Assembly (NCBI GenBank): GCA_027068485.1
Contig: JAMOSB010000012.1
Location: 48,347 to 112,346, forward strand
Direction of reading: 5' to 3'
Source: Sulfurovum sp.
GTDB lineage: Bacteria; Campylobacterota; Campylobacteria; Campylobacterales; Sulfurovaceae
Length of the DNA stretch: 64,000 bases
Part shown: positions 1,854 through 22,898 of the stretch, piece by piece
How the letters are laid out: the number at the start of each line of letters is the position of its first letter
How positions within the stretch are numbered: the stretch's first letter is position 1
Position numbers and translations under genes: made by a program
Notes under the pieces: generated by a model
Told to the model about the DNA's origin: nothing
The model's database searches: none
What the model saw: only the letters and a program-made list of their open reading frames with translations

Positions 1854-3485
1854 GTGATTGTTTGGCTCGTATCGTACCCTCAAAGTGGTGATGCTTTAGT
1901 GCGTCACCTCCTACACCAAATCTTTGGGATTGAAGTAGAGACGGTTGAGGAGCAAAAGCAATCACTCACCACCCTCCGTCAAGCAGACACCCCCACCTAT
2001 CTTACAACCCACCACCATCCAGATCAGACGATTTATCCTGAAGATAAGGTACTCTATCTACTTCGTGATGGACGAGAGAGTACACTGCTCTACTACCAAG
2101 CCATAGCATCGGACTATACTTTGCGTGAGGTGATTGTAGGAGAGGTACCTCTAGGCAATTGGGGTACACATCTAGGCGCATGGGATCCCCAACAGCGTCC
2201 CAATACCCTCTTGATACACTATGAAAAACTCCTCCAAGACCCCTATAGCCAGATCCCTTCTATCGCACACTTTTTGGTATGCACACCACAAGAGAAGCCC
2301 CTCTCTTCACTCTCTGCCTATACAACACCTATCACACACACCTATAGCCCAGCAGAGGAGAACCTCTTCTATGCCAAACACTCCCTACGACTCAAAGAGT
2401 ACGGCTATACTATTCCTCCTCACCCCTCTGCCCCCTCTAGTGAGCTAAAGATCTCAGTGATTACCCCCTCTTTGAATGCGGGAGAGTATATTGAGCGGGC
2501 GATAGAGAGTGTACTCGATCAGCACTACCCAAACTTTGAACATATTGTTATTGATGCACAATCGACCGATAACACCCTAGAGATACTACGACGCTATCCT
2601 CATCTTAAGTGGATTAGTGAACCAGACACAGGACAATCCAATGCCATGAACAAAGGCTTCGCCCTTGCCTCAGGAGATATCATCGTCATCCTCAACCATG
2701 ATGACTACTTCATCCCCAATGCCTTTCATAGTGTTATCCCTTACTTTGAAGCAGGTGAGCAGTTTGTTGTAGGCGATCTTCTTGTACATGATATGACACA
2801 ACGCGAAGTGGTAGTCTCACCCCAAACCACACATGAAGCGATCCTACACCACTGGCGTAAACGCGACTATATCACTCCCACCCATGCACGCTCCTCCTTC
2901 CCCAACAACCCCGTACAGTACTTCTATACCAAAGCCGTACAGCACGCATGCCCATTTAACGAATCCAACCACTTTACCATGGATATTGAGTTTCTTATCG
3001 ATGCCTCAGCGTCTTACTCATTTTGTAAAATCGATACTATTTTAGGAGTCTACTTCCGCAGAGAAGATGCCAAAGCAGTCGTAGCAACCAGTGATGCACT
3101 CCACTACTGGACTTTTGAGACCTTTGCCTATATCGATCGCTATATTCAGCACTGGAAGCCTGAGAAGCTCCTACAATTCAAAGCTGCACAATCACAAGGC
3201 TACCTAGAGCATATCAGCCACAAGCTACTCCAAACGATTACCCAGCAAAACAAAGAGATCAAACAACAACAGCAACAGATTGAGCAACAAACACAAGAGA
3301 TAGCAGAGACGACCCATACACTCTCAGAGGTGACTCATCAGCTCACCTCTCTAATGGAGAGTATCGAAGAGATCACAACGCACCCCATCACCTCACAACC
3401 ACTCAAAAAGCTCAAAGCCTACCAAACCATGCTCGATAGATTCGATCATACTAGAAAGGAGAGACCCCTATGTCTATCAAAGTAA
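1854..3485 (+). CDS. Three-module fusion: N-terminal sulfotransferase-fold domain, central GT2 glycosyltransferase, C-terminal Q/E-rich coiled coil.
   Basis: GTG start. Sulfotransferase-like blocks are VSYPQSGDALV (5'-PSB-like loop), THHHP, KVLYLLRDGRESTLLYY (3'-PB-like RxxRxxxxS), GNWGTHLGAW and LLIHYEKLLQDPYSQIPSIAHFL. GT2 block: ISVITPSLNAGEYIERAIESVLDQHYPNFEHIVIDAQSTDNT...NHDDY. Coiled coil: QQNKEIKQQQQQIEQQTQEIAE. Confidence 0.8.
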   Translation: MIVWLVSYPQSGDALVRHLLHQIFGIEVETVEEQKQSLTTLRQADTPTYLTTHHHPDQTIYPEDKVLYLLRDGRESTLLYYQAIASDYTLREVIVGEVPLGNWGTHLGAWDPQQRPNTLLIHYEKLLQDPYSQIPSIAHFLVCTPQEKPLSSLSAYTTPITHTYSPAEENLFYAKHSLRLKEYGYTIPPHPSAPSSELKISVITPSLNAGEYIERAIESVLDQHYPNFEHIVIDAQSTDNTLEILRRYPHLKWISEPDTGQSNAMNKGFALASGDIIVILNHDDYFIPNAFHSVIPYFEAGEQFVVGDLLVHDMTQREVVVSPQTTHEAILHHWRKRDYITPTHARSSFPNNPVQYFYTKAVQHACPFNESNHFTMDIEFLIDASASYSFCKIDTILGVYFRREDAKAVVATSDALHYWTFETFAYIDRYIQHWKPEKLLQFKAAQSQGYLEHISHKLLQTITQQNKEIKQQQQQIEQQTQEIAETTHTLSEVTHQLTSLMESIEEITTHPITSQPLKKLKAYQTMLDRFDHTRKERPLCLSK

Positions 3486-5662
3486 GTCTCATTATCCCCG
3501 TTTATAATGTTGAGTCCTATCTACGCAACTGTTTAGACTCCGCCTGCACGCAAACCCTCCAAGAGATTGAGATTGTCGTCGTCAACGATGGCTCTACCGA
3601 TCAGAGTCTCTCCATACTTACGGAGTATCAAGCTAAAGATCCTAGAGTCAAACTCTTCTCACAATCCAATCAAGGGCAAGGCTACGCACGCAACCTTGCT
3701 ATACGAGAAGCCGTAGGGGAGTTTATCTTTTGCCTTGATGGTGATGATATCATCGCTCCACATACACTCGCCCAACTCTACCAAAAATCCCAAGATGAAG
3801 CCTCCGATGTAGTCATCTGTGGCTGGCAACGCATCGATGAGATGAGTGGTGATATCCTTGCTACGCGTGAAGATATCCATGCACTCAAATCCTATGACAA
3901 AGAGACCATCAACCGTACGATTTTTTCAGGACGGATGAATCTCATGGCGTGTGCATCACTAATCAAACGCTCTATTATCACCGATAACTACATCCTCTAC
4001 CCCAACCTCCTCCATGAAGATCTCTATGTCATGCCAAAGGTCTACTTCTTTGCCAAGAAGATTACAATCGATACAGAGAACCTCTACAGCTGGTTGGTAC
4101 GCAGTACCTCCACCACCAATACCTTTACGATGCAACACGCCATTGGTATCGCGGGAATTGCCAATGAGTGGCGTATGTTTCTACTCAAAGAGGGGGTCTA
4201 TGAGAGCTATAAAGATGCCTATGTCCAAGGGGTAATTGCCTATCTTGACTCCTATCTACGCAAAGTCTATGCGTTTGCCACCCCCCAAGAGAAAGACCAA
4301 CTCCTTGAGTTTCTCACTGATACTTTACGGGGGATTCATGAGCTTGCAGACTACAGCATCATCCTCTCAGACAAGGAGCTTGAAGCACGCAAATCGCTAC
4401 TACACTTCTACCAAAATGTCACCTCTCACAAACAGACAAACTGTAAAAAACTTGTCGTTCAAAATAGCCTACTCAAATCACAACTCAATGAGATAAAATC
4501 CTCACGAGGCTACAAACTACTACTCAAGTACTACCGTACACGCGAACGGCACCTCCCGATAGGAAGTCGACGCAGAGAGGTGGTAAAACATCTTGCCAAC
4601 TTCATCGCCAAGCGAGAGCTCTCTGTCCTCAAACCCAACAAAAACCCCAAACGCCCTACACCCCAGATGCACTATGACATTATCTTTCTACCACACAAAG
4701 ATTATCAAGTCTGGACTATGGGGCTTATCACCCGCGCACTCAAAGCAGAAGGCATTACCGCGTGTATGATGGATCTCACCGACTACTACAAGGATGAAGG
4801 GGCGAGAGAGGCGATTAAACAGTTTGAGGATATTGACTTTAAAGACCTCTCTGTACTACTAGAGCATCAAGTCTCCTATGATGCCTTGATCTGTATGAAT
4901 GATTGGGATCAGAAGGTAACACGCCCCTTGATCTTAGAGGCACAAAAAGATGGTAAAAAAACCATTGGGATTATCGAAGGGATCAATGACTTCCATGATA
5001 GTGATATCCCATGGCAACGCCACGCTTACCAGACCGTAGAGTATCTCCTTATGACAGGGGAACACGATAGAACCTTCTTCCCAAGCAAAACAGACAAGAG
5101 CTATGTCATCGGGGTACCTCGTCTCCAAGAGCTGATGCAAGAGACTCCACACTTCCCCAAAAAGCCCCTAGCCGTTATCAATCTCAACTTCTCTTATGGT
5201 ATCTTAGAAGATCAACGCGATGCATGGTTAACCAGTGTCCTAGAGGGGTGTAGCATTGCCAATATCGATTATGTGATTACACAGCACCCCGCAGACCATG
5301 CCGATTTGAGTGACTACCATGTCTCAACCAAAAATATGTATGATACAATTCGAGAAGGGACGATTATCATTAGCCGTTTTGGATCGATTATCCTAGAGGC
5401 ACTTGCGATGGGTAAACCCGCTATCTATCACAACCCGCATCAGGAGAAAGTAGTGAAGTTCCAAGACCCTATGGGTGCCTATAGCACCAGCCAAACCGTC
5501 CAAGAGCTAGCAGAGGCGATTAGGTTTGAACTCGGCTTATCGGTAGATTATCGAGAACGAGCCAACACCTTTTTGAATCACCACTGCAATATCAACCAAA
5601 CCCAGAGTTCTGCGACCCTTGCAGCCAAAGTTATCACCACAATCCTAAAGGAGCACTCATGA
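3470..5662 (+). CDS. Two-domain glycosyltransferase: N-terminal GT2, short coiled-coil linker, and a C-terminal GT-B-like domain (TagF/capsule-synthesis-like).
   Basis: AGGAGAG RBS, and a 16-nt overlap with the upstream gene. GT2 block: VSLIIPVYNVESYLRNCLDSACTQTLQEIEIVVVNDGSTDQS...LDGDD. The C-terminal IISRFGSIILEALAMGKPAIYHNP is typical of GT-B donor-binding halves. Confidence 0.8.
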   Translation: MSIKVSLIIPVYNVESYLRNCLDSACTQTLQEIEIVVVNDGSTDQSLSILTEYQAKDPRVKLFSQSNQGQGYARNLAIREAVGEFIFCLDGDDIIAPHTLAQLYQKSQDEASDVVICGWQRIDEMSGDILATREDIHALKSYDKETINRTIFSGRMNLMACASLIKRSIITDNYILYPNLLHEDLYVMPKVYFFAKKITIDTENLYSWLVRSTSTTNTFTMQHAIGIAGIANEWRMFLLKEGVYESYKDAYVQGVIAYLDSYLRKVYAFATPQEKDQLLEFLTDTLRGIHELADYSIILSDKELEARKSLLHFYQNVTSHKQTNCKKLVVQNSLLKSQLNEIKSSRGYKLLLKYYRTRERHLPIGSRRREVVKHLANFIAKRELSVLKPNKNPKRPTPQMHYDIIFLPHKDYQVWTMGLITRALKAEGITACMMDLTDYYKDEGAREAIKQFEDIDFKDLSVLLEHQVSYDALICMNDWDQKVTRPLILEAQKDGKKTIGIIEGINDFHDSDIPWQRHAYQTVEYLLMTGEHDRTFFPSKTDKSYVIGVPRLQELMQETPHFPKKPLAVINLNFSYGILEDQRDAWLTSVLEGCSIANIDYVITQHPADHADLSDYHVSTKNMYDTIREGTIIISRFGSIILEALAMGKPAIYHNPHQEKVVKFQDPMGAYSTSQTVQELAEAIRFELGLSVDYRERANTFLNHHCNINQTQSSATLAAKVITTILKEHS

Positions 5663-6333
5663 AACTCAAAGCCCTACTCCCGATGAAAGGGACCTCCGAA
5701 CGCGTCCCCAATAAAAATATGAGAGATTTTGATGGTGCACCGCTCTATCATGCTATTATGAAATCACTACTTGCCTCTCAGTATATCGAGGCGGTAGTGA
5801 TCAATACCGATAGCCAGATCATCGCCCAAGATGCCAAGAAGCACTTTGGGGAGCGTGTCATCATCATCGACCGTCCCGAAGCGATCCAAGGAGGCGATGT
5901 CTCGATGAACCTCATCATCGACTATGATCTCCAACAGCTTGGAGGAGAACACTTCCTACAGACACACAGCACCAACCCACTCTTGCGTGCGGAGACGATT
6001 GACCATGCAGTAGAGGCGTACTTTGCCAAGCTTGATCAACACGATTCGCTCTTTGGGGTGACACGGGTACAGACACGCTTCTATGACAAAGATGCCAACC
6101 CTATCAACCACAACCCCCAAGAGCTTCTACGCACCCAAGACCTTGAGCCTCTCTATGAGGAGAACTCCAACTTCTACCTCTTCTCCAAAGCCTCCTTTGA
6201 AGCATCCCAGAAAAAACGCATCGGGCTTACCCCTCAGATCTTTGAGGTCAACAAACTCGAAGCGGTCGATATCGATGAGCCAGAGGATTTCAAACTCGCA
6301 GAACTACTACATATACATAAGGATCACCTATGA
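5659..6333 (+). CDS. Acylneuraminate/CMP-sugar-acid cytidylyltransferase family protein (NeuA/KdsB-like fold).
   Basis: ATGA overlap with the upstream gene. N-terminal LLPMKGTSERVPNKNMRDFDGAPLYHAIMKSL and HSTNPLL are characteristic of the CTP_transf_3 family. Confidence 0.85.
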   Translation: MKLKALLPMKGTSERVPNKNMRDFDGAPLYHAIMKSLLASQYIEAVVINTDSQIIAQDAKKHFGERVIIIDRPEAIQGGDVSMNLIIDYDLQQLGGEHFLQTHSTNPLLRAETIDHAVEAYFAKLDQHDSLFGVTRVQTRFYDKDANPINHNPQELLRTQDLEPLYEENSNFYLFSKASFEASQKKRIGLTPQIFEVNKLEAVDIDEPEDFKLAELLHIHKDHL

Positions 6334-7094
6334 GTCTAAAGAAAAAACTACAAAACAATCAGCTGACCCTCGGTAGCTGGATTATGATGGGCAACACCAT
6401 GAGTGTCGAGGTGATGGCACTGGCTGGATTTGAGTGGTTGGTGGTCGATAGCGAACACACCGCGATGGATATGGAGACGATACAGACCCTTATCGCCACA
6501 ATCCAAGCCAAAGGGATCAAAGCCCTTGTACGCGTGAGCAAAAACGAAGAGGTGGTGATCAAAAAAGTACTCGATATGGGTGCAGATGGGATCATCGTCC
6601 CGATGGTCTGCTCTCAAGATGATGCCAAGCAAGCTGTCGCCTACGCCAAGTACCCCCCTGTGGGCAAGCGTGGAGTGGGACTCTACCGCGCACAGCAGTT
6701 TGGTATGGGCTTTGAGGCGTATAAGAAGTGGGTCGATGAGGAGCTTGTCATTATCGCTCAGATTGAGCATATCGATGCAGTCAACTCGATCGATGCGATT
6801 TTAGCGGTTGAGGGGATCGATGGGACAATTATTGGTCCTTATGATCTCTCAGGTAGTATGGGATACCCAGGGGAGTTTGAGCGAGAGGATGTCAAAGAGG
6901 CTGTCCAAAAAGTCCTCGATCGATGTCACGCACACAATATCCCCTCAGGGTTCCATGTTGTCGATACCGACCCTGCCAAACTCCAACTCAAGATAGACCA
7001 AGGGTGTACCTTCCTTGCGTATGGTATCGACTACTTCTTTATGCGAGATGCGGCTATCTCTGGGATGAAAACCTTACGAGAGGAGAATGCGTAG
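6330..7094 (+). CDS. HpcH/HpaI-family class II (divalent-metal) pyruvate aldolase.
   Basis: ATGA overlap. LGSWIMMGNTMSVEVMALAGFEWLVVDSEHTAMD...LVRVSKNEEVVIKKVLDMGADGIIVPMV...IAQIEHIDAV...GPYDLS matches the 2-keto-3-deoxy-acid aldolase family. Confidence 0.85.
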   Translation: MSLKKKLQNNQLTLGSWIMMGNTMSVEVMALAGFEWLVVDSEHTAMDMETIQTLIATIQAKGIKALVRVSKNEEVVIKKVLDMGADGIIVPMVCSQDDAKQAVAYAKYPPVGKRGVGLYRAQQFGMGFEAYKKWVDEELVIIAQIEHIDAVNSIDAILAVEGIDGTIIGPYDLSGSMGYPGEFEREDVKEAVQKVLDRCHAHNIPSGFHVVDTDPAKLQLKIDQGCTFLAYGIDYFFMRDAAISGMKTLREENA

Positions 7095-8048
7095 ATGAAA
7101 GTATTTGTATCCACCCATCCCTTCTCCTCCACCTCACCCCTCCCAATGCAACTCGTAGAGGAGCATCGCATTGAGCTAAGCCTCAATGAACACGGCAGAA
7201 AGATCACCTCCGCAGAGCTAGCAGAGGATATCAAAGATGCCGAGGTACTCATCGCAGGGACAGAGAAGATCACCCAAGCAGTCTTTGAGAATGCCCCCAA
7301 CCTCAAGCTCATCTCACGGGTTGGGATCGGACTCGATGGGATCGACTTTGATCTGTGTCAGCAGTATGGTGTACGCGTCGCCTACACCCCTGATGCCCCC
7401 ACGATGGCAGTAGCAGAGCTGTGTGTGGGGATGATACTTGACCTTGCACGCAAGATCTCCACCACCAATACCCAGATCAAAGCAGGTATCTGGCACCGTC
7501 ACATGGGGACACTCCTCTATGGCAAAACGGTAGGGATCTTTGGGATGGGACGCATCGGCAAGAGCCTCATTCACCTCCTTAGTGGGTTCAATGTCACCTT
7601 CAAAGTCTATGATACCACCCCTGATCTCGCCTTTGGACGACTCTATGGTGTGGAGTTTGTCTCCAAAGAGAGCGTACTCTCCCAGAGTGATATCCTCTCG
7701 GTCAATGTCCCACTCAAAGCCGATACCCTTGACTATATCACCCTCAAAGAGCTTAAGATGATCCAACCCCACGCACTCCTCATCAACACCGCAAGAGGGG
7801 GGATCGTCAATGAAGCCGACCTCTATACGGCACTCAAAGAGGAGATCATCGCAGGGGCTGCGATCGATGTCTTTGAGGAGGAACCCTACACAGGAGTATT
7901 GACCCAACTTGACAATGCCCTACTCACCTGCCACATGGGTGCGAGTACCATCGATAGCCGTACCGATATGGAGGTACAAGCCCTAGAGGAGGCGATACGC
8001 TACCAAAACAACCTCCCCCTCAAAAATGAGGTATCAAGCAATGCCTAA
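7095..8048 (+). CDS. D-isomer-specific 2-hydroxyacid dehydrogenase (phosphoglycerate/glycerate dehydrogenase-like).
   Basis: Starts 1 nt after the upstream stop. NAD motif GKTVGIFGMGRIGKSL, plus ...LINTARGGIVNEADL... and ...CHMGAST. Confidence 0.85.
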   Translation: MKVFVSTHPFSSTSPLPMQLVEEHRIELSLNEHGRKITSAELAEDIKDAEVLIAGTEKITQAVFENAPNLKLISRVGIGLDGIDFDLCQQYGVRVAYTPDAPTMAVAELCVGMILDLARKISTTNTQIKAGIWHRHMGTLLYGKTVGIFGMGRIGKSLIHLLSGFNVTFKVYDTTPDLAFGRLYGVEFVSKESVLSQSDILSVNVPLKADTLDYITLKELKMIQPHALLINTARGGIVNEADLYTALKEEIIAGAAIDVFEEEPYTGVLTQLDNALLTCHMGASTIDSRTDMEVQALEEAIRYQNNLPLKNEVSSNA

Positions 8049-8922
8049 AAAAATCGTCGTCTTTGGAGGCAATGGATTTATCGGAAGCTATCTGATTGAG
8101 GAGTTGCTAGACCACGGCTACCATGTCATCTCAGCCGATCTCACCCCCTCTAAGTATGTCGATGACCGATACTACACACGGTGTGATATCCTAGATAAGG
8201 CTCAGGTCACTGCCTTGGTAGAGGGTGCCTCTATCGTCTACAACTTCGCAGGCTTTGCCAACCTCGATGATGCCATCGCCAACCCCACCAAAGCCCTAGA
8301 GCTCAATGTCATGGGTAACCTCAATATCTTAGAGGCGTGCAAGACACACCATGTCAAGCGGTTTGTCTATGCCAGTAGTGCCTATGCGATGAGTGACAAA
8401 GGCTCCTTCTACGGTATCAGCAAACTCACCTCTGAGAAGCTCACCGAGGAGTACTACAAGAAGTTTGGACTGGAGTTTACTATCGTGCGTTATGGTTCAG
8501 TCTATGGAGAGCGAGACTACCACAACAACTACATCTACAATCTCCTCAAGCAGTCCGTTGCCACACAGGAGATCCACCATAGTGGCGATGGGGAGGAGAT
8601 ACGGGAGTATATCCACGCAGCAGATGTCGCCAAACTTGCACGGGAGATTATCGAGTCAGATGACTTTATCAATGAGCATATTATCCTTACAGGGGTCGAG
8701 CGGATGCAACGCAGAGAGCTTTTTGAGATGATCAATGAGATCTTAGGGGGGAGCCTCACCATCAACCTCAATGATGATGGCTACCACAACCACTACAAAA
8801 CCACCCCCTACTCCTTCCACCCTACACGCAGTAAGAAGCTTGTCGCCAACCCCTATATCGATATGGGGCAGGGGCTGTTAGATTGTCTCAAAGATATCGA
8901 GGAGAACCAGCCCAATGACTAA
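8041..8922 (+). CDS. NAD-dependent epimerase/dehydratase (extended SDR).
   Basis: MPKKIVVFGGNGFIGSYLIEELL Rossmann motif, and YGISK (YxxxK). I prefer ATG 8041 (GAGG 8 nt upstream) over ATG 8026. 8-nt overlap with the upstream gene. Confidence 0.8.
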   Translation: MPKKIVVFGGNGFIGSYLIEELLDHGYHVISADLTPSKYVDDRYYTRCDILDKAQVTALVEGASIVYNFAGFANLDDAIANPTKALELNVMGNLNILEACKTHHVKRFVYASSAYAMSDKGSFYGISKLTSEKLTEEYYKKFGLEFTIVRYGSVYGERDYHNNYIYNLLKQSVATQEIHHSGDGEEIREYIHAADVAKLAREIIESDDFINEHIILTGVERMQRRELFEMINEILGGSLTINLNDDGYHNHYKTTPYSFHPTRSKKLVANPYIDMGQGLLDCLKDIEENQPND

Positions 8923-9586
8923 ACGCCTCTACCTCTCCCACCTACTCGATAGCCAGACCCCCACCTATGGCAACCGCAACCAGTTTGTCTGTGAAAGACG
9001 CTCAGCTATCGCCAAGGGGGATGTGGCCAATGATAGTCACATCGAGACGACCGTACATATCGGCACCCATATCGATATGCCCTATCACTTCTTTGAGGAG
9101 GGGCAGACGATAGAGGATTTTGATAGTGACTTTTTTGCGTTTAACCGCGTACACTTTCTCTCCTTTACTCCCCAAGAGCGGGTGATCCATCAGGAGCTTA
9201 TCGATCAGCTAGAGCCGATCGAAGAGAAAGCCTCTATCGAGCTACTCATCATCAAGACAGGCATCTGCCATCAGCGTACGACTCCCTACTTCTGGGAAGA
9301 GAACTATGGATTTGCTCCTGAGGTGGCACACTACCTCCGCACCCACTTCCCCAAGGTACGCGTAATTGGGTTTGATAGTATCTCCGTCTCTAGCTTTGCA
9401 CACCGTATGGTTGGGCGTGAGGCACATCGAGCCTTTCTTGATCCCTCTCACCCTATCCTACTCATCGAAGATATGGATCTATGTCTGCTTCAGGCAAGCA
9501 GTCAGATCAAACACCTCACCGTCGCACCCCTACGCATCGCACAGTGCGATGGACTACCCTGTACCATCATAGCGGAGATAGCATAA
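8915..9586 (+). CDS. Cyclase-family protein (kynurenine-formamidase-like metal hydrolase fold).
   Basis: GGAGAA RBS. The HIGTHIDMPYHF motif is typical of the PF04199 cyclase/formamidase family. Confidence 0.8.
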   Translation: MTKRLYLSHLLDSQTPTYGNRNQFVCERRSAIAKGDVANDSHIETTVHIGTHIDMPYHFFEEGQTIEDFDSDFFAFNRVHFLSFTPQERVIHQELIDQLEPIEEKASIELLIIKTGICHQRTTPYFWEENYGFAPEVAHYLRTHFPKVRVIGFDSISVSSFAHRMVGREAHRAFLDPSHPILLIEDMDLCLLQASSQIKHLTVAPLRIAQCDGLPCTIIAEIA

Positions 9587-9771
9587 TGGCCATTTTTGAT
9601 ACCTCAATGGATCTCATCAACTACCACGACACCACCGACTACTCAGAGTTCACCCTACACGCAGGAGATATCGCAATCTTCTACCCCGATGATGCCCATA
9701 TGCCCTGCGTCCAAATAGACACCCCTACCAAGGTGGTCAAGAGTGTAGTCAAGGTCGCCTACCATGGCTAA
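9586..9771 (+). CDS. 61-aa ORF matching only the C-terminal third of YhcH/YjgK/YiaL (DUF386, EbgC-like) proteins; probably a gene remnant or mini-protein.
   Basis: TAATG overlap with the cyclase stop, with GGAGA 7 nt upstream. FTLHAGDIAIFYPDDAHMPCVQIDTPTKVVKSVVKV resembles the conserved C-terminus of the roughly 150-aa family. The N-terminal two-thirds are absent. Confidence 0.45.
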   Translation: MAIFDTSMDLINYHDTTDYSEFTLHAGDIAIFYPDDAHMPCVQIDTPTKVVKSVVKVAYHG

Positions 9772-10390
9772 GATCCACACCATTATCTTCGATTTTGATG
9801 GGGTGATCCTCGACTCTGTGCCTGTCAAGACAGAGGCATTTAGACGACTCTTTGAGGCGTTTCCCTCGGAGCAGGTTGAGCAGTTTATCGCCTACCATGA
9901 GTACAATGGCGGGATCTCCCGCTATGTGAAGATCCAGTACTTCTTTGAGCAACTCCTCCAAACCTCTATCTCTCAAGCAGAGATATCCTCCTACGCCACA
10001 CGCTACTCAGAGTTGACCAAAGAGGAGCTAAGCAAGCCTCAGTATCTCATCACCCAGACCCTCACCTTTATCCAAGCCCACTACCAGCACCTCAACCTCC
10101 ATATCGCATCAGGTGCTGATCAGGCAGATCTTCGCTATATCTGTAATGCCTTGGGACTCTCTAAGTACTTTCTCACTATCGGTGGCTCCCCCACCCCCAA
10201 AGGGGAGATTGTCAAAGAGATTCTCTTGGCACACCACTACACGCAAGAGGAGACGATCTTGATTGGGGATAGTATCAATGACTTTGCCGCAGCAGAGGCT
10301 AACCATATCGGATTTTATGGCTTTAACAACCCCGATCTCCAAGCCGACCACCCCTATATCGAGCAGTTTGAGACCGTTGACTTTCTATGA
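9764..10390 (+). CDS. HAD-superfamily hydrolase (phosphatase, subfamily IA-like).
   Basis: IIFDFDGVILDS (DxDG motif I), and ILIGDSINDFAAA (motif IV). Confidence 0.85.
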   Translation: MAKIHTIIFDFDGVILDSVPVKTEAFRRLFEAFPSEQVEQFIAYHEYNGGISRYVKIQYFFEQLLQTSISQAEISSYATRYSELTKEELSKPQYLITQTLTFIQAHYQHLNLHIASGADQADLRYICNALGLSKYFLTIGGSPTPKGEIVKEILLAHHYTQEETILIGDSINDFAAAEANHIGFYGFNNPDLQADHPYIEQFETVDFL

Positions 10391-11235
10391 AGATCTCCCT
10401 CATTCTTGCGACCCTCCATCGCACCCATGAGGTGCAGGCACTCCTCACTTCACTCACCCAACAGACCTATAGCCACTTTGAGGTGATTATCATCGATCAA
10501 AACAGTGATGAGCGTATCACACCGCTCATCCAATCCTTTGATCAACTCGATATCCTCCACCTTCGTAGTGCGATAGGACTCTCCCTCGCACGCAATGTGG
10601 GACTCTCTCACGCCTCAGGGGAGATTGTCGGGTTTCCTGATGATGACTGCACCTATCCACCGATGCTACTCCAATCGATTGTAGCGTTCTTTCAACAAGG
10701 AGCCTACCCACTCCTCACAGGTAAGACCATCGACCCCACGAGTCAACAGATCGTAGCGGGGAGTCTACACACCACCCCTACCCCTCTCTCCTGTACACAG
10801 ATACACGGCTCTTCCACCACGCTCTTTATCGCCACGGCTACACTCGGTACGCTTCGCTTTGATGAACGGTTTGGGCTAGGAGCCAAATACCACGCTGAGG
10901 AGGAGAATGAGCTGATCTTACGCCTCCTTCAGCAAGGGGTCAAAGGCTACTACCACCCAGAGATCAACACCGTCTACCACCCCCCCTCAGACCTTGACTA
11001 CCACGACACCACACGCATTGCCTACCGTGCGGTGGGGTTGGGGGCGTTTATCGCCAAACACCTTGGCTCTCTTTGTGGCGTACACTACCTCATCAAGTAC
11101 GCCCTTATCCGTCCCCTGCTAGGCTCCCTACTCTATAGACTCAAGGGTGATCCGATCAAAGCACGCTTCTACTTCGCAAAGTTTCGTGGGATCTGGCAGG
11201 GACTACTCACCTATCTCAAGGAGGAGCGATCATGA
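10387..11235 (+). CDS. GT2-family glycosyltransferase.
   Basis: ATGA overlap. ISLILATLHRTHEVQALLTSLTQQTYSHFEVIIIDQNSDE...GFPDDDC. Confidence 0.85.
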   Translation: MKISLILATLHRTHEVQALLTSLTQQTYSHFEVIIIDQNSDERITPLIQSFDQLDILHLRSAIGLSLARNVGLSHASGEIVGFPDDDCTYPPMLLQSIVAFFQQGAYPLLTGKTIDPTSQQIVAGSLHTTPTPLSCTQIHGSSTTLFIATATLGTLRFDERFGLGAKYHAEEENELILRLLQQGVKGYYHPEINTVYHPPSDLDYHDTTRIAYRAVGLGAFIAKHLGSLCGVHYLIKYALIRPLLGSLLYRLKGDPIKARFYFAKFRGIWQGLLTYLKEERS

Positions 11236-12257
11236 CCATACTATTTGATGGGCGGGTCTTGACCCATAGCATCTTTACAGGAGTCGAACACTACACAGAG
11301 TCGATCTATCATCAGCTTCGTACCCAACTCAACCTCTCACTCCAAAGCCCCCCCACCCGCAACAAGTACCTCGCCCACCTCTGGAGCCACTTAGTACTTC
11401 CTTTTGCCAAAGGGGAGCTACTCTTCTGCCCTGCCAACCTCGCCCCCTACTTCGTCCCCAAGCACAAAAAGCTAGTCATCACCCTCCATGATGTCGCCTT
11501 TTTACGCTATCCTCAGAGCTTCACCCCTCTCTTTTGGCGGTACTACCAGTGGCTCATCCCTCATGTGCTAATGCGTGCAGATCGTATCATTACCATCTCC
11601 CAAAGCTCCAAAGCGGAGATATGCCACTACTATCCTCAGATCCAAGAGAAGATAAGCGTGATTGGGCTAGGGGTCGAGCCACACTTTCGCCCACTCCCCA
11701 CCCCCCAAAAGCACAAGCAGATACTCTTTGTCGGCTCCCTCAATACCCGCAAGAACTTCACCGCCGTCCTTGAGGCATTTAAGCGACTCAACCGACCCGA
11801 GTATCAGCTCATCATGGTAGGCAACTTCTCAGCCAACTTTGCCCTTGACCCGACCACCCAAGCCCTCCTCGATGAAGCCAGAGCCAACCCCGCCATCACC
11901 TTCCGCTCCAACCTCTCAACCGAGCAACTCGTTGCCTGCTACCAACACGCTACTCTCCTGCTCTTTCCCTCTCTCTATGAGGGGTTTGGACTCCCTCCAC
12001 TCGAAGCGATGGCGTGTGGTACCCCTGTCATCACCTCCCACTGCTCCTCGATGCCTGAGGTGTGTGGAGAGGCAGCGACCTACATCGACCCACACGATAT
12101 CGACGATATCGTCGCCAAACTCACAGAGCTACTCGATGATGAGGCGGGCTACTCTGCTAGAGTCGCCAAAGGGATAGCACACGCCAAGCACTTCACATGG
12201 GAGCAGAGTGCTACGGCACATCTTGAGTGCTTTAGAGGAGTCCTCTCATGCGAGTAG
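11232..12257 (+). CDS. GT4 (GT1-clan) glycosyltransferase.
   Basis: ATGA overlap. [28 protein letters not shown] contains the E-x7-E type motif. Confidence 0.85.
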
Positions 12258-13373: not shown

Positions 13374-14567
13374 CTAATATAAAAACCCAAACAGCCACAA
13401 GGGTATCTTATTGCCAAACCCTACCTCTATCTCATCTGCCACCACAAAAGAGTTCTCTAGATCTTTTATCTGTTTAAAGCTCTTATGTTTGCCACCTATC
13501 TCAACAATATACTTCATATCAATCAAAAAATCACCCACCTTTGAATACGCTATTGTATACTCCTTATCTAGCTGATTGACAAAAAAGCTCTCTCTGAGTG
13601 TGCCACTCTCTTGCATATCACAGTAGGCGTAGTTGAGATTGGTATTGTTGAGATAGAGCTTGGAGGGCTTGGAGAAAACGGTATCTCCTTTGGCTTTGGG
13701 CTGTACTTTGAGAAATATATCTCCTAGTGTAAGGTAGTGGATGTAAAGGTAGAGTGTTTTTCTGTTGATACCTATCTTACTTGCAAGGTTTGTGAGATTC
13801 AGCTCATAGGGCTTTGAGTTACAGATATATGCCACCAGCTGTTTAAGCTTCATGATATTGCTAGGCTCGATATTAAAGATCATCGGCAGATCACTCTCCA
13901 CTACGACATTGACCGTCTCTTCAAGTTTGAGATAGTAGGTATCGGGGGTCTCAAAATAGAACGGGTAGTACCCAAACTGTAGATAGGCTTTGAACTGCTC
14001 CAAGGGTTTGATCTGTTTCGTGATCTCTTTGGCTAGTCTCGTATGATGCTCCAAGATATCATCGAGTGTATAGGGTTCAAATGTCTGCCCCAGTTTAAAC
14101 TCCAAAAACTCTCTAAAACTAAGCCCCTTCACACGGTACAATACCGCCCTACGACTCAAATCCGCCTTTTTATGCTCCAGTACGATAGCAGAACTCCCAC
14201 TGAAAATGACTTGTATATCTAAAAAGTCATAGATCTCTTTAAGTGCAATCTCAAAGTTTGGATACTTGTGTATCTCATCTATCACCAGTACTTTTCCACC
14301 AAGGTTAGAGAAGCTCTCTGCAATCTCAAAGAGTCTCTCCTCTGAGCCAAGTATACTATCTACACTGAAGTAGAGTTTTTTATCCTCTGCTATCTCTAGA
14401 CTCTCTAGATACTGGAGTAAAAAAGTAGTCTTCCCCACCCCTCTTGCACCTACGATACCGATCAGTCTTTCACGGAAGTCTACGATATCAAAAAAGTATC
14501 GCTTGTACTTTACAGCCTCTATCTTTTTGTTGATATATGCATATTTTTTAAAGAGTGTAGCGATCAT
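13374..14567 (-). CDS. AAA-family ATPase of the AAA_14/DUF4143 type (orphan ATP-binding protein).
   Basis: Walker A GARGVGKTT and Walker B VLVIDEIH. Opposite strand to both flanking operons, and visibly lower GC. Confidence 0.85.
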   Translation of the reverse strand: MIATLFKKYAYINKKIEAVKYKRYFFDIVDFRERLIGIVGARGVGKTTFLLQYLESLEIAEDKKLYFSVDSILGSEERLFEIAESFSNLGGKVLVIDEIHKYPNFEIALKEIYDFLDIQVIFSGSSAIVLEHKKADLSRRAVLYRVKGLSFREFLEFKLGQTFEPYTLDDILEHHTRLAKEITKQIKPLEQFKAYLQFGYYPFYFETPDTYYLKLEETVNVVVESDLPMIFNIEPSNIMKLKQLVAYICNSKPYELNLTNLASKIGINRKTLYLYIHYLTLGDIFLKVQPKAKGDTVFSKPSKLYLNNTNLNYAYCDMQESGTLRESFFVNQLDKEYTIAYSKVGDFLIDMKYIVEIGGKHKSFKQIKDLENSFVVADEIEVGFGNKIPLWLFGFLY

Positions 14568-18022: not shown

Positions 18023-19858
18023 ATGCCGACACAGACTTTTCCACTTTTTTTTAAAGCCAACCTACTCCTCACCGCACTACTCTTTACCCTCTTTTTGAGC
18101 TTCAACCAAGGCTATACACTCCTCACCTTTGGAGTGACACTCGCAGGAGCGATAGGGAGTGCGGGGGTACTCTACCTCCTCTTTGCACTGATTCTACTCC
18201 CCCTACGATGGTCACCACGCTGGAGACTTCCACTCTCCGCACTCCTCTTTATCCTCACCGATGTAGCCCTTCTTACTGACCTCTTTATCTACAAACTCTT
18301 TGGCTTTCATATCAATGCAATGGTACTCAATATCCTCACCTCCCCCGATGCACTCGACTCGATCCAAGCGGGGGTTATGCCTCTGATACTCTTTGGGGGG
18401 TTGGTGGTGGGGAGTGTGGCACTAGAGTGGTATCTCCTACACCGACTCCACCGCCTAAGCCTCCCCACACAGCAGAGACTCAACCGCCTGAGTAATCGCG
18501 TTATCCTCCTTCCCCTCCTTGTGATTATCCTTGGGGAGAAGGTGAGCTATGGGGTCGCCTCACTCTTCTCCTACAACGCCATTGTCTCCAAGTTTCGCGT
18601 GATTCCTCTCTATCAGCCCTTGACCTTCCGACGCATCGCCGCCAAACACTTTGGGTTCAAGGCAGAGGAGCAGGCCAAATACAGTATCCAGACCGATGCG
18701 ACCCTCCACTACCCTCTTCGCCCACTCACCCTTGCACCCGACCAGAAACCCTTCCCGATCTTTATCATCGCGAGTGACGCAGTCAAGTATACGATCCTCA
18801 GCCCCGAACTCACCCCACACCTCACCGCCTTTGCCAAGGAGTCCCTCAACTTTAAGCACCACTACAGTGGAGGCAATAGCACACGGTTTGGGATCTTTTC
18901 ACTGATGTATGGACTCAATGCCACCTACTGGTTTAGCTTCCTCAATGCCAACCAAAAGCCCCTACTCTTTGATATCCTCCAACAGCTCCACTATCAGATC
19001 GATATCTTCTCCTCGACCAACACCAACTGGCCAGAGTTTCGCAAGACCTGCTATGTGGCGATCCAATCCTCTATCCACGATAGGTTTGAGGGGGTACCAT
19101 GGAGAAAAGATCGACAAAATACCGACTGCTTCCTTCAGAGTCTCACCCCCACCACCACCCCACGCTTTAGCTTCGTCTTCCTTGATGCTCCACATGGCTA
19201 CTCCTACCCCCAAGCGTTCAACCTACACCACGCCCCCAAAGAGGAGATCAACTACCTCAAGGTAACCCAAGGGAGCCAAGAGCTTCAAAAGGTCATCAAA
19301 CGCTACAAAAATGCTGTCGCCTACAACGATGCCCTCTTTGGGGAGATGATCGCCAAACTCAAAGCGGTAGGACTCTATGAAGAGTCACTTATCCTCTTCA
19401 CCTCCGACCATGGGCAGGAGTTTTTTGAGCAGGGCAACTTCGGACACAACACCGCTTTCTCAGAGGGGCAGACCCATATCCCTCTACTGATGAAGCTCCC
19501 CAAGTCACTCCAAAACCAAGGCTTAGGGCGTGCGATCAATGACTCACTCAGTAGCCATCAAGACCTCGTCCCTACCCTCCTCACACTCCTAGGTGTCACC
19601 AGTGACCCCCAGAGCTATAGCAACGGTAAAGATCTCTTAGCCCCCACCTTCCACCGTGACTATGTCCTCAGTGCCAACTGGAACAACAACGCCATTATCA
19701 CCCCCACACGCACCTATCTCTTCTCCAACCTCCCCAACAAGATGTTTAGCAGTGAGATACGCGATAGCCAAAGCTACCAACTCCTCTCCAAGGAGCGGGT
19801 ACCAAGTCAACTCATCCTCCACGCGATCGATGAGAACAAAAAATTTATACGCCCCTAA
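18023..19858 (+). CDS. YejM/PbgA-like inner-membrane protein with a periplasmic alkaline-phosphatase/sulfatase-superfamily domain.
   Basis: AAGGAG RBS. Five N-terminal TM helices, then a sulfatase-like domain (FIIASDAV...FTSDHGQEF). Confidence 0.7.
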
Positions 19859-22289: not shown

Positions 22290-22898
22290 CTAAACTTCAC
22301 CCACGAGATAGCCCCGCTCCTCAAGGTAGCTAAGCACCGATGCCACTAACTCCTCTAGGCTCATCTGCTCACCTCTTAGCCAGATCTCAGGTGTAGTGGG
22401 GGCTTCATAGGGTGAGGAGATCCCCGTAAAGTTGGGGATCTCACCACTGCGTGCCTTACGATATAACCCCTTGGGGTCTCTTGCTTCACAGATCGCTAGG
22501 GGGGTATCGACAAATACTTCGATAAACTCCCCCTGCTCTACGACCCCTCTCACCTGCTCTCTATCAGCTTGAAAAGGGGAGATAAATGCACTCAAGACGA
22601 TCATCCCCGCATCGACAAAGAGCTTGCCCACCTCCCCGATACGACGGATATTCTCCACCCGATCCCTATCAGAAAAGCCCAATCCTCGATTGAGTCCTAG
22701 ACGGATATTGTCCCCATCAAGGAGATAGGTGTGGTGTCCCCGCGTGACGAGTTCCGCCTCCACCGCATTGGCGATGGTCGATTTGCCACTGCCACTCAAC
22801 CCCGTAAACCAAAGAATCGCAGGTTTTTGAGCCTTGAGTCTTGCCCGTTGTAGCTTGGTGACTTGTGGCGTATGCCATGTGAGATGCTTAGTTGACAT
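22290..22898 (-). CDS. cysC: Adenylyl-sulfate (APS) kinase, canonical.
   Basis: [20 protein letters not shown]-loop, [32 protein letters not shown], and FISPF. Start taken at ATG 22898; the alternative is GTG 22946. Confidence 0.85.

What the first reader, a model, noticed from the sequence alone, without database searches (positions are those of the whole stretch)
5659..10390. Non-canonical CMP-activated acidic-sugar module: a NeuA-like cytidylyltransferase paired with an HpcH/HpaI aldolase instead of a NeuB/KdsA-type synthase
Seven translationally coupled genes (ATGA, TAATG or 8-nt overlaps) encode a CTP_transf_3 cytidylyltransferase, an HpcH/HpaI class II pyruvate aldolase, a D-2-hydroxyacid dehydrogenase, an extended SDR, a cyclase/formamidase-fold hydrolase, a YhcH remnant and a HAD phosphatase. 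Established knowledge: CTP_transf_3 enzymes activate 2-keto-3-deoxy sugar acids (Kdo, sialic/legionaminic/pseudaminic acids) as CMP esters. HpcH/HpaI aldolases reversibly condense pyruvate with an aldehyde to give 4-hydroxy-2-keto acids. The window contains no PEP-dependent NeuB/KdsA-type synthase, NeuC, PseB/C or LegB/C homolog. Inference: the aldolase supplies a 2-keto-3-deoxy (ulosonic-type) acid by a pyruvate-dependent route, and the acid is then CMP-activated and transferred by the flanking GTs. Alternative inference: the dehydrogenase, phosphatase and hydrolase build a glycerate/lactate-type acyl substituent. I do not know of a characterised pathway with this composition.
Basis: partly seen in the sequence, partly recalled or inferred. 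Interest (0 to 1): 0.75.

Follow-up and report, generated by a model that had tools for sequence, protein, structure and literature searches.

The report
Uncharacterised CMP-keto-sugar-acid biosynthesis module
A tightly packed set of seven genes, found almost unchanged in bacteria of at least eight phyla, appears to make and CMP-activate an acidic keto-sugar for the cell surface without either known synthase type, so it points to a surface sugar and a route that nobody has described.

Summary
Seven co-oriented, overlapping ORFs at 5659-10390 encode a NeuA-like cytidylyltransferase (CT), an HpcH/HpaI aldolase, a PGDH-like 2-hydroxyacid dehydrogenase (2HADH), an extended SDR, a cyclase-fold hydrolase, a 61-aa YhcH remnant and a HAD phosphatase. 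No protein reaches any curated equivalog cut-off, and the window holds no KdsA, KdsB or NeuB homolog.

The set is a mobile module. CT+aldolase+SDR+2HADH+HAD co-occur in about 45 of 81 loci, across Campylobacterota, Bacteroidota, Desulfobacterota, Deferribacterota, Proteobacteria, Spirochaetota and Bacilli.

Comparison changes the interpretation:
- The pair nearest to invariant is CT+2HADH. Basal members and some crown loci lack the aldolase.
- The hydrolase slot is filled by cyclase or by a bona fide 6-phosphogluconolactonase, never both.
- YhcH is optional.

I could not fix the product. My preferred route: sugar-phosphate to lactone to phospho-aldonate to 2-keto-phospho-aldonate, with the aldolase making or re-making the C3-C4 bond, then dephosphorylation and CMP activation.

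Eight full-text searches found no description of this pathway. I class it as a new variant of a known kind.

The parts
3470..5662 (+). 730-aa two-domain glycosyltransferase: N-terminal GT2 plus C-terminal GT-B-fold domain (about 4670-5659). Candidate transferase for the activated sugar acid.
   Evidence: Pfam GT2 hit on residues 6-170. AlphaFold model of the C-terminal domain has pLDDT 91.6. It is a generic GT-B fold, nearest UDP-GlcNAc 2-epimerases, TagF and PglA. Homologs of this domain lie in seven other module-bearing loci. Its stop overlaps the CT start (ATGA).
5659..6333 (+). NeuA/PseF-like cytidylyltransferase (CT), 224 aa
   Evidence: CTP_transf_3, 91 bits. Best curated model is PseF at 82.7 bits, below the 205.7 cut-off. 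NeuA motifs are kept in alignments to 1qwj, 6ifd and 1eyr. Homologs of 77-99% identity occur in Sulfurovum, Sulfurimonas, Vibrio algarum and Flavobacteriaceae.
6330..7094 (+). HpcH/HpaI class II (metal-dependent) keto-acid aldolase, 254 aa
   Evidence: PF03328, 122 bits. Nearest solved structure is GarL 1dxe (E 1e-47). His, Arg, Glu and Asp align with the residues I recall as catalytic in GarL. All equivalog cut-offs are missed.
7095..8048 (+). PGDH-like D-2-hydroxyacid dehydrogenase (2HADH), 317 aa
   Evidence: Pfam. Nearest solved structure is P. horikoshii phosphoglycerate dehydrogenase 1wwk (E 1e-56). It shares the Arg before the GxGxD motif and the short W-x-R loop with PGDHs, not with glyoxylate reductases. 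It is 44-47% identical to the dehydrogenase half of a widespread CT-like/2HADH fusion.
8041..8922 (+). Extended SDR, about 293 aa from the 8041 start (298 aa from 8026). It is the most conserved protein of the module.
   Evidence: Epimerase PF01370, 140 bits. Nearest solved structures are NDP-sugar 4-epimerases at only E 1e-22; uronate dehydrogenase and UXS also match. It is 82-85% identical in Vibrio algarum and Sulfurovum.
8915..9586 (+). Cyclase/kynurenine-formamidase-fold metal hydrolase, 223 aa. Inferred lactonase slot.
   Evidence: PF04199, 62 bits. Weak matches to metal-dependent hydrolases and kynurenine formamidases. In nearly all loci that have both, it directly follows the SDR (exceptions L013, L028, L047). 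It is mutually exclusive with a 6-phosphogluconolactonase that holds the same position (29 versus 16 loci, never both).
9586..9771 (+). Remnant of a YhcH/NanQ-type (DUF386) gene: 61 aa, with an in-frame internal deletion of ~100 residues
   Evidence: Pfam and TIGR00022 match only the last third of the family profile, 43.0 bits against a 45.5 cut-off. Comparison with full-length genes at the same position in L001, L005, L006 and L008.
9764..10390 (+). HAD-IA phosphatase, 208 aa
   Evidence: HAD_2 and Hydrolase Pfam hits. Nearest curated models are beta-phosphoglucomutase-family and phosphoglycolate phosphatases, all below cut-off.
10387..11235 (+). GT2 glycosyltransferase co-inherited with the module
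   Evidence: Pfam GT2. A 41-56% identical gene directly follows the HAD gene in L001, L005, L006, L014 and L015.
11232..12257 (+). GT4 glycosyltransferase that often travels with the module
   Evidence: Pfam Glycos_transf_1. The same protein cluster is present in 13 module loci.

Best explanation
The seven genes are one horizontally mobile module. It makes a 2-keto (ulosonic-type) sugar acid from a phosphorylated central metabolite and activates it as a CMP ester. Adjacent glycosyltransferases then use it for an LPS or surface glycan. No PEP-dependent NeuB/KdsA synthase is involved.

Preferred order of steps (all inferred):
1. The extended SDR oxidises C1 of a sugar phosphate to a lactone.
2. 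The cyclase-fold hydrolase opens the lactone to a phospho-aldonate. Bacteroidota use a true 6-phosphogluconolactonase here.
3. The PGDH-like 2HADH oxidises C2, which creates the alpha-keto acid.
4. The HpcH aldolase breaks and re-forms the C3-C4 bond of this 2-keto-3-hydroxy acid. It uses a hydroxypyruvate-type enolate plus a phospho-aldehyde, and so sets stereochemistry or exchanges the aldehyde part.
5. The HAD enzyme removes the phosphate.
6. A YhcH-type anomerase, decayed in this window, would speed ring closure.
7. The NeuA-like CT forms the CMP-sugar acid.
8. The GT-B domain of 3470-5662 and/or the GT2 at 10387 transfers it.

On this reading the product is a 3-hydroxy, non-3-deoxy 2-ulosonic acid. 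It would be hex-2-ulosonic if the precursor is a hexose 6-phosphate.

Shown directly: gene content, conserved catalytic motifs, synteny, and the pattern of slot replacements. Inferred: every substrate and the order of steps.
For: The module is conserved. All five core proteins (CT, aldolase, SDR, 2HADH, HAD) lie together in about 45 of 81 loci from many phyla; each one singly is present in 54-62 loci.

The CT keeps the NeuA motifs for CTP, the carboxylate-binding R-x-Q-D and the DID metal site.

CT+2HADH is the most constant pair:
- Basal branches of the CT clade have 2HADH but no aldolase.
- The window-type 2HADH also occurs fused to a CT-like domain in at least 120 protein clusters.

Aldolase-less loci lie in a Lachnospiraceae-type genome (L057: MBL-fold hydrolase, CT, 2HADH, classical SDR) and in Anaerolineales (L089). 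No NeuB, KdsA or aldolase hit turned up among the neighbouring ORFs I scanned.

Non-homologous replacement within slots:
- Cyclase (29 loci) versus a 6-phosphogluconolactonase that passes its curated cut-off (161.9 > 124.45; 16 loci), never both. In nearly all loci that have both genes the hydrolase sits directly after the SDR.
- Extended SDR versus a classical SDR whose good matches include glucose- and aldose-1-dehydrogenase models, though its best match is generic and none reaches cut-off.
- None of the six classical-SDR loci has a HAD gene clustering with the module's, whereas 15 of 16 Pgl loci do. This looks like a free-sugar version and a phospho-sugar version.

The 2HADH is PGDH-like in two diagnostic segments, so a phosphorylated or anionic substrate is likely. 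The residues that align with the GarL catalytic set are intact.

Kdo/NulO-type transferase families lie nearby in other loci.
Against: - No enzyme was assayed and no product is known.
- The role I give the aldolase (epimerisation or exchange through retro-aldol and aldol) is the weakest step. I know of no HpcH-family enzyme shown to do this in a biosynthetic pathway.
- CT, aldolase and SDR diverge in parallel between phyla (51-61% identity), while 2HADH and HAD are replaced by distant paralogs (25-33%). That fits a view in which the aldolase belongs to the specific core and the 2HADH and HAD only supply precursors.
- The SDR is closer to NDP-sugar 4-epimerases than to any sugar-phosphate dehydrogenase.
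- L064 has a SIS sugar-phosphate isomerase next to the aldolase, as KdsD sits with KdsA.
- The only Pgl locus without an aldolase (L043) may be a deletion remnant.
- The related 2HADH fusion also heads a NeuB-containing cluster, where it cannot be the source of the keto acid.
Confidence: 0.4

Rival explanations
1. The HpcH aldolase is the synthase. It condenses pyruvate with an aldose phosphate to a 2-keto-3-deoxy-ulosonate phosphate, as a pyruvate-dependent analogue of KdsA or NeuB. The HAD enzyme dephosphorylates it as KdsC does. YhcH helps ring closure. The CT makes the CMP ester. The SDR, hydrolase and 2HADH tailor the sugar or its precursor.
For: The aldolase has an intact catalytic set and lies next to the CT in most loci. 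CT, aldolase and SDR co-diverge as a unit. L064 carries a SIS isomerase beside the aldolase, matching the KdsD-KdsA logic. A second, unrelated pyruvate-aldolase-type protein (HMGL-like) sits next to CTs in L080-L083 and in L056/L071, in the last two with a HAD gene. YhcH is related to the Neu5Ac anomerase that works with the pyruvate aldolase NanA. Phosphatase plus CT mirrors KdsC/KdsB.
Against: It gives no role to the 2HADH, which is the gene most constantly linked to the CT. It gives no role to the 6-phosphogluconolactonase/cyclase slot. It cannot explain the aldolase-less loci L057, L089, L076, L077 and L084.
Confidence: 0.3
2. Ulosaric-acid route. The 2HADH and HAD convert 3-phosphoglycerate to hydroxypyruvate, which isomerises to tartronate semialdehyde. 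The GarL-like aldolase joins this to pyruvate, giving 2-keto-3-deoxy-hexaric acid, a six-carbon relative of Dha. The CT activates it. The SDR and hydrolase act later, for example on a lactone of the diacid.
For: The best matches of three enzymes fit literally: the 2HADH matches phosphoglycerate dehydrogenases, the aldolase matches 2-dehydro-3-deoxy-glucarate/galactarate aldolase, and the HAD is a phosphatase. The four-gene version in Facilibium (L030: CT, aldolase, 2HADH, HAD) would be complete starting from 3-PG and pyruvate. A distal 2-hydroxy-acid end would give the CT-like/2HADH fusion something to act on in a CMP-bound sugar. An AP_endonuc_2 gene, the family that includes hydroxypyruvate isomerase, lies at the edge of L090.
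Against: I know of no such sugar in any glycan. No isomerase is in the window. It does not explain the 6-phosphogluconolactonase or the aldolase-less loci. The aldolase scores well below the GarL equivalog cut-off (190.9 versus 406.75).
Confidence: 0.1
3. Substituent route. The CT activates an ulosonic acid made elsewhere in the genome (Kdo or a nonulosonic acid). The 2HADH, HAD, SDR, hydrolase and aldolase build a small hydroxy-acid substituent of glycerate, lactate or dihydroxybutyrate type that decorates it.
For: A 2HADH 47% identical to the window's, fused to a CT-like domain, heads a canonical NeuB/NeuC/PglD/DegT legionaminic-type cluster in L091. PGDH plus phosphatase is the simplest way to hydroxypyruvate or glycerate. 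N-glyceroyl nonulosonic acids exist and their genetics were unknown in 2017 (PMC5378307). Only 64 kb of the genome is visible.
Against: The module has no acyl-activating enzyme, carrier protein or acyltransferase. The CT clade is separate from KdsB and from the NeuB- and Leg-associated CTs sampled. The module occurs in Bacilli, Lachnospiraceae-type and Chloroflexota loci, with no NeuB or KdsA hit among the neighbours I scanned. A YhcH-type sugar-acid anomerase and a lactonase are hard to place in this scheme.
Confidence: 0.12
4. The genes form a catabolic or salvage set for sugar acids (dehydrogenase, lactonase, aldolase, as in non-phosphorylative sugar oxidation) that merely lies inside a glycan locus.
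For: SDR, lactonase and an HpcH aldolase are also the components of the L-rhamnose and uronate oxidative pathways. The nearest solved aldolases (GarL, HpaI, YfaU) are all catabolic.
Against: There is no dehydratase, kinase, transporter or regulator. The genes are translationally coupled to a CT and to glycosyltransferases. In all 81 loci the neighbours are glycan-assembly genes: GTs, Wzx-like flippases, Wzm/Wzt and MptE-like proteins.
Confidence: 0.03

Closest known systems
Kdo pathway (KdsD, KdsA, KdsC, KdsB)
   Same: The overall logic is shared: sugar phosphate, then keto-acid phosphate, then dephosphorylation, then a CMP ester used by LPS or capsule transferases. One related locus even has a SIS isomerase.
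   Different: There is no PEP-dependent DAHP-synthase-type KdsA. The phosphatase is HAD-IA rather than KdsC type. The CT is NeuA/PseF-like and gives no tblastn match with E. coli KdsB. Three further enzymes (2HADH, SDR, lactonase-type hydrolase) have no counterpart.
Nonulosonic acid pathways (NeuC/NeuB/NeuA; Pse and Leg pathways with PseF/LegF)
   Same: The CT belongs to the same Pfam family and keeps the same motifs. MptE-like/DUF115 proteins, as in Maf flagellin glycosyltransferases, accompany the module in 24 loci.
   Different: No NeuB synthase, NeuC hydrolysing epimerase, aminotransferase or acetyltransferase is present. The CT scores 82.7 bits against the 205.7 PseF cut-off and branches apart from NeuB- and Leg-associated CTs.
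Sialic acid catabolism: NanA aldolase with the NanQ/YhcH anomerase
   Same: A pyruvate-type aldolase is combined with a YhcH-family protein that acts on a 2-keto sugar acid.
   Different: As far as I know NanA is a class I (Schiff-base) aldolase of the DHDPS family, whereas this aldolase is class II HpcH. The context here is biosynthetic, and the YhcH gene is decayed in this window.
GarL / HpaI / YfaU catabolic class II aldolases
   Same: 35-40% identity range and the same catalytic His, Arg, Glu and Asp.
   Different: Scores are about half the curated equivalog cut-offs. The gene is coupled to a cytidylyltransferase and glycosyltransferases instead of catabolic genes.
Oxidative pentose-phosphate entry (Zwf, Pgl) and the Pseudomonas 2-ketogluconate branch (KguD, a 2HADH-family 2-keto-6-phosphogluconate reductase; from my own knowledge)
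   Same: The proposed steps sugar-6-P, lactone, 6-phospho-aldonate, 2-keto-6-phospho-aldonate use the same chemistry. Bacteroidota modules carry a protein that passes the 6-phosphogluconolactonase cut-off.
   Different: The dehydrogenase would be an extended SDR, not Zwf. The 2HADH would run in the oxidative direction. The product would be CMP-activated rather than catabolised.
Serine pathway enzymes SerA (PGDH) and SerB (HAD phosphatase)
   Same: The 2HADH is nearest to PGDHs in all three diverged subfamilies found in the modules, and it is paired with a HAD phosphatase.
   Different: There is no SerC aminotransferase. The 2HADH scores 213.6 bits against the 454 cut-off and lacks the R-S motif seen at that position in the aligned PGDHs.

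Membership tests
CTP_transf_3 (NeuA/KdsB/PseF-type cytidylyltransferases) | Pfam PF02348 gathering score | tested here: met
   91.4 bits against 22.6.
CTP_transf_3 (NeuA/KdsB/PseF-type cytidylyltransferases) | P-loop with basic residues, Q-x-(T/S)-(S/N)-P sugar motif, R-x-Q-D carboxylate motif, D-I-D metal site | tested here: met
   MKGTSERVPNKN, QTHSTNP, RTQD and VDIDEPED align with the corresponding segments of 1qwj, 6ifd and 1eyr. The roles of these residues come from my own knowledge of NeuA structures.
PseF, KdsB or MocA equivalogs (NCBIfam) | Curated whole-protein cut-off | tested here: not met
   PseF 82.7 against 205.7; KdsB models at most 34 against 155-281. No tblastn match between E. 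coli KdsB and the window.
HpcH/HpaI class II aldolases | Pfam PF03328 gathering score, plus the catalytic His/Arg and metal-binding Glu/Asp | tested here: met
   122.3 bits against 25. His (DSEH), Arg (VRV), Glu (QIEH) and Asp (GPYD) align with the corresponding GarL residues, which I number H50, R75, E153 and D179 from my own knowledge.
HpaI, GarL or YfaU (RhmA) equivalogs | Curated cut-off | tested here: not met
   201.3 against 368.8; 195.9 against 393; 190.9 against 406.75; 161.5 against 441.
D-3-phosphoglycerate dehydrogenase | Curated cut-off, and the residues I recall as phosphate-binding arginines | tested here: inconclusive
   213.6 against 454, so it is not an equivalog. The Arg before GxGxD and the W-x-R loop are present, but the R-S motif is replaced by A-G-T.
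KdsA/NeuB-dependent ulosonic acid pathways | A PEP-dependent synthase (DAHP_synth_1 or NeuB) in the cluster | tested here: not met
   No match in the 64-kb window. No such synthase turned up in the module-bearing loci whose neighbours were scanned or carry Pfam annotation. The rest of the genome is not visible.
YhcH/YjgK/YiaL (DUF386) family | Full-length cupin domain (~150 aa) and the TIGR00022 cut-off | tested here: not met
   Only profile positions 93-145 are matched, 43.0 bits against 45.5. About 100 residues are deleted internally. Full-length genes occur in 28 related loci.
6-phosphogluconolactonase (for the hydrolase slot) | TIGR01198 cut-off | tested here: not met
   The window protein is cyclase-fold, not Pgl. 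The protein in the same slot in L032 passes (161.9 against 124.45). Lactonase activity of the cyclase-fold protein is inferred from the shared position only.
NDP-sugar 4-epimerase/dehydratase (extended SDR) | Pfam Epimerase score, YxxxK, and an equivalog cut-off for GalE, RmlB, LegB or PseB | tested here: inconclusive
   The Pfam score is met (140.4 bits) and YGISK is present in the translation. All equivalog cut-offs are missed: LegB 81 against 475, RmlB 80 against 365, GalE 65 against 262. The substrate class, nucleotide sugar or sugar phosphate, could not be decided.

The most novel reading that the evidence does not exclude
[quoted passage not shown] That would be a third, independent biochemical route to activated ulosonic acids. 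It would imply an unrecognised acidic sugar, probably often methylated or sulfated, on the surfaces of many marine, sediment and gut bacteria.
Probability: 0.45. Interest if true: 0.85.

Novelty: new variant of a known kind. Interest (0 to 1): 0.7.

Why it matters
As far as I know, every characterised route to a CMP-activated ulosonic acid (Kdo, sialic, legionaminic and pseudaminic acids, Kdn) starts from a PEP-dependent aldol-type synthase. A route that starts from dehydrogenases and/or a class II keto-acid aldolase would add new chemistry to glycan biosynthesis.

It would also predict a surface sugar acid that structural studies have missed. Such ketosidic linkages can be very acid-labile, as was noted for the hexulosonic acid of the E. 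coli K3 capsule.

The module is common, with homologs in at least eight phyla, and it travels with sulfotransferases and methyltransferases. Its product may therefore matter for phage and host recognition and for marine polysaccharide chemistry. The aldolase, dehydrogenase and cytidylyltransferase set could also be useful for enzymatic synthesis of activated keto-sugar acids.

Tried and rejected
1. A single-sequence AlphaFold run of the whole 730-aa glycosyltransferase failed (pLDDT 37). The C-terminal domain with an 18-sequence alignment worked. However, the fold search returned only generic GT-B relatives, with no sialyltransferase or KpsC/S signal. The transferase type therefore does not identify the donor.

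2. Profile and sequence searches of that domain against PDB and Pfam gave nothing.

3. Eight literature searches on combinations of HpcH, aldolase, cytidylyltransferase, ulosonic acid, hexulosonic acid, heptulosaric acid, the Pfam accessions and hydroxypyruvate found no description of this gene set. One further search was rejected for syntax.

4. E. coli leads:
- The E. coli K3 capsule, which contains 4-deoxy-2-hexulosonic acid, was considered. No E. coli complete genome has DNA similar to the module at blastn sensitivity.
- An E. coli plasmid CT (29% identity) belongs to a different module, with a CT, an inositol monophosphatase and a NeuB.

5. An oxidative-pentose-phosphate-like model (G6P to 6PG to pentose-P, then pyruvate) was rejected. 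I know of no 2HADH enzyme that decarboxylates, and pentose phosphates are not limiting.

6. A tail-oxidation model leading to Dha was set aside, because no enzyme in the set is suited to oxidise a primary alcohol.

7. Phosphonate, MeOPN and CDP-alcohol pathways were rejected. There is no PEP mutase, kinase or LicC/IspD-type transferase in the module.

8. I tried to read substrate specificity from 2HADH residues. This showed only that the enzyme is PGDH-like rather than glyoxylate-reductase-like.

Full report
**What is there**

The window carries seven co-oriented ORFs at 5659-10390. Each passes its Pfam gathering score:
- CTP_transf_3 cytidylyltransferase (CT), 5659-6333
- HpcH/HpaI aldolase, 6330-7094
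- D-2-hydroxyacid dehydrogenase (2HADH), 7095-8048
- extended SDR, 8026/8041-8922
- cyclase-fold hydrolase, 8915-9586
- the C-terminal third of a YhcH/DUF386 protein, 9481-9771
- HAD-IA phosphatase, 9764-10390

The junctions are ATGA at 5659, 6330 and 10387. There are 8-nt overlaps at 8041, 8915 and 9764, and TAATG at 9584-9588. The aldolase/2HADH junction is TAG followed directly by ATG.

The YhcH remnant is a 61-aa in-frame ORF (9586-9771). It has lost about 100 internal residues compared with full-length genes at the same position in related loci.

The flanks hold glycosyltransferases, including a sulfotransferase-GT2 fusion and a 730-aa GT2 with an extra domain, plus an initiating phosphoglycosyl transferase and HldE. 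Downstream on the minus strand lies an LPS core/lipid A region with PAPS synthesis, three LicD genes, MsbA, WaaL, LpxL and a heptosyltransferase. The last 20 kb are housekeeping genes, so the locus is chromosomal.

E. coli KdsA, E. coli KdsB and a NeuB-family protein find nothing in the 64 kb.

**None of the proteins is a known equivalog**

Against NCBIfam every protein stays far below the curated cut-offs:
- CT: PseF 82.7 against 205.7; KdsB models at most 34
- aldolase: HpaI 201 against 369; GarL 191 against 407
- 2HADH: PGDH 214 against 454
- SDR: LegB 81 against 475

The nearest solved structures are NeuA enzymes for the CT, at only E 1e-9. For the aldolase they are GarL, HpaI and YfaU. 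For the 2HADH they are an archaeal phosphoglycerate dehydrogenase followed by glyoxylate reductases. For the SDR they are NDP-sugar 4-epimerases, weakly. For the hydrolase they are kynurenine formamidase-like enzymes.

The CT keeps the NeuA motifs: the P-loop, Q-x-S-T-N-P, R-T-Q-D and D-I-D. The aldolase keeps the residues that align with the catalytic His, Arg, Glu and Asp of GarL. The 2HADH resembles PGDHs, not glyoxylate reductases, in the Arg before GxGxD and in the short W-x-R loop.

**It is a conserved, mobile module**

CT homologs of 77-99% identity occur in Sulfurovum, Sulfurimonas, Flavobacteriaceae and Vibrio algarum. A scan of one genome per species returned 80 loci from these groups:
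- Campylobacterota, Desulfobacterota, Deferribacterota, Bacteroidota
- Gamma- and Alphaproteobacteria
- Spirochaetia, Bacilli, Chloroflexota, Bdellovibrionota, Verrucomicrobiota
- one archaeon

I clustered all neighbouring ORFs. With the CT, the SDR is found in 62 of 81 loci, the 2HADH in 61, the aldolase in 60 and the HAD in 54. All five occur together in about 45 loci. Related versions lie on alphaproteobacterial plasmids.

Frequent neighbours are MptE-like/DUF115 proteins (24 loci), Wzx-like flippases, ABC exporters, methyltransferases and sulfotransferases. One locus has KpsC/S-like Capsule_synth genes beside the CT.

The C-terminal domain of the window's 730-aa transferase recurs in seven other module loci. 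It folds as a generic GT-B, which does not identify the donor.

**What the variants say**

1. The hydrolase slot holds either the cyclase-fold protein (29 loci) or a protein that passes the curated cut-off for 6-phosphogluconolactonase (16 loci), never both. In nearly all loci that have both genes it sits directly after the SDR. In one Firmicute locus an MBL-fold hydrolase lies directly upstream of the CT. About eleven complete loci have no such hydrolase, as expected for a step that also runs spontaneously.

2. YhcH is present in 28 loci. It resembles the Neu5Ac anomerase and is again dispensable.

3. The 2HADH is the gene most constantly linked to the CT.
- In a rough neighbour-joining tree the window's CT clade is separate from E. 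coli KdsB, a NeuB-associated CT and a legionaminic-cluster CT.
- Its basal members have 2HADH but no aldolase.
- Aldolase-less loci are also scattered in the crown: L028, L043, L050, L057 and L069.

4. The window-type 2HADH (44-47% identity) is fused to a degenerate CT-like domain in at least 120 protein clusters from many phyla.

5. Six loci replace the extended SDR by a classical SDR. Its good matches include glucose- and aldose-1-dehydrogenase models, though its best match is generic and none reaches cut-off. None of the six has a HAD gene clustering with the module's, whereas 15 of 16 Pgl loci do.

6. Aldolase-less loci lie in a Lachnospiraceae-type genome (L057) and in Anaerolineales (L089). 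As far as I know these lineages make no Kdo. No NeuB, KdsA or aldolase hit turned up among the neighbouring ORFs I scanned, although several of those ORFs have no Pfam family.

7. Some observations point the other way.
- CT, aldolase and SDR diverge in parallel between phyla, while 2HADH and HAD are swapped for distant paralogs.
- One Bacilli locus has a SIS isomerase next to the aldolase.
- An unrelated HMGL-type aldolase-like protein accompanies CTs in other clades.
- The 2HADH fusion also heads a canonical NeuB-containing cluster.

**Most likely mechanism**

I am fairly confident (about 0.8) that the module makes a CMP-activated 2-keto sugar acid independently of NeuB or KdsA, and that the flanking glycosyltransferases use it. 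The exact sugar is not determined.

The scheme that accounts for the most variants is an oxidative one:
1. The SDR oxidises a sugar phosphate to a lactone.
2. The cyclase-fold hydrolase (or Pgl) gives the phospho-aldonate.
3. The PGDH-like 2HADH creates the 2-keto group.
4. The HpcH aldolase breaks and re-makes the C3-C4 bond, either epimerising the acid or exchanging its aldehyde part through a hydroxypyruvate-type enolate.
5. The HAD enzyme dephosphorylates.
6. YhcH anomerises.
7. The CT activates.

I give this 0.4. Its weak point is the aldolase step. Its weak points are the unexplained 2HADH and lactonase and the aldolase-less loci. A 3-PG to hydroxypyruvate/tartronate-semialdehyde route to a 3-deoxy-hexulosaric acid gets 0.1. 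A substituent-building role, with the ulosonic acid made elsewhere, gets 0.12. Catabolism gets 0.03. All substrate assignments are inferences; nothing was assayed.

**Comparison with what is known, and novelty**

The module works like the Kdo and nonulosonic-acid pathways: keto-acid phosphate, then phosphatase, then a CMP ester. It fails the defining test for membership, which is a PEP-dependent synthase. Its CT is not an equivalog of KdsB or PseF. Its parts resemble catabolic or central enzymes (GarL/HpaI, SerA, Pgl, NanQ) recruited to biosynthesis.

Eight full-text searches found no paper describing this gene set. Recent untargeted work shows that new CMP-ulosonic acids are still being found. 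The genetics of some known hexulosonic and N-glyceroyl sugars remain open.

I class the finding as a new variant of a known kind, with interest 0.7. It is real, widespread and uncharacterised. One LC-MS experiment with predicted masses would test it directly.

Noticed in passing
window 1854-3485 (+) and 22290-25941 (-): A Sulfotransfer_1 + GT2 fusion protein lies near the module. So does a PAPS supply set: two APS kinases, one of them fused to DUF2061, plus CysN and CysD. Sulfotransferases also sit beside CT/2HADH genes in L084, L089 and L090, which suggests the glycan is sulfated.
   Followed up: partly
window 28150-30579 and 33542-38019 (-): A second, unrelated head-group pathway is present. 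It comprises three LicD genes, a TagF-like glycerophosphotransferase, a 486-aa CTP_transf_like + GFO_IDH_MocA fusion, a class-V aminotransferase and a hexapeptide acyltransferase. This looks like a CDP-activated amino-alcohol or polyol substituent for the LPS core.
   Followed up: no
L037:6160-7911, and P0138-P0257 (for example L089:9001-10773, L090:9001-10788, L091:9001-10746): A ~585-aa fusion is widespread. It joins a degenerate CTP_transf_3-like domain to a PGDH-like 2HADH that is 44-47% identical to the window's. The CT-like domain has lost the P-loop, keeps DID and has a new DIDYxWQVP motif. The fusion always sits beside a separate, intact CT. In L091 it heads a canonical NeuB/NeuC/PglD/DegT cluster. 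Its function is unknown.
   Followed up: partly
L080-L083, L056, L071 (for example L056:11291-12829): A ~510-aa protein with an HMGL-like (DRE-TIM aldolase/synthase) domain plus an unassigned C-terminal domain lies directly next to CTs of other clades. This may be another NeuB-independent synthase type.
   Followed up: no
window 13374-14567 (-): An AAA_14/DUF4143 ATPase gene on the opposite strand interrupts the plus-strand glycosyltransferase operon, between the GT4 genes and the Bac_transf gene.
   Followed up: no
window 18023-19858 (+) and 20442-22271 (-): There are two ~610-aa Sulfatase-domain membrane proteins, one with DUF3413. They resemble phosphoethanolamine-transferase or YejM-type LPS modifiers.
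   Followed up: no
L023, L027, L034, L037, L041, L022, L025, L077, L089, L090, L093 (inside or beside the module): Methyltransferase genes (Methyltransf_24/TylF-like, FkbM, class I SAM) are often inserted between the CT and the aldolase or next to them. This suggests that the sugar acid is O-methylated in many lineages. None is present in the window's module.
   Followed up: partly
window 25995-27041 (-) and 48739-51078 (-): Two sizeable ORFs (348 and 779 aa) have no Pfam family at E<=1e-5. The first gives a faint match (E 0.004) to a NeuB-family/DUF115-like plasmid protein.
   Followed up: no
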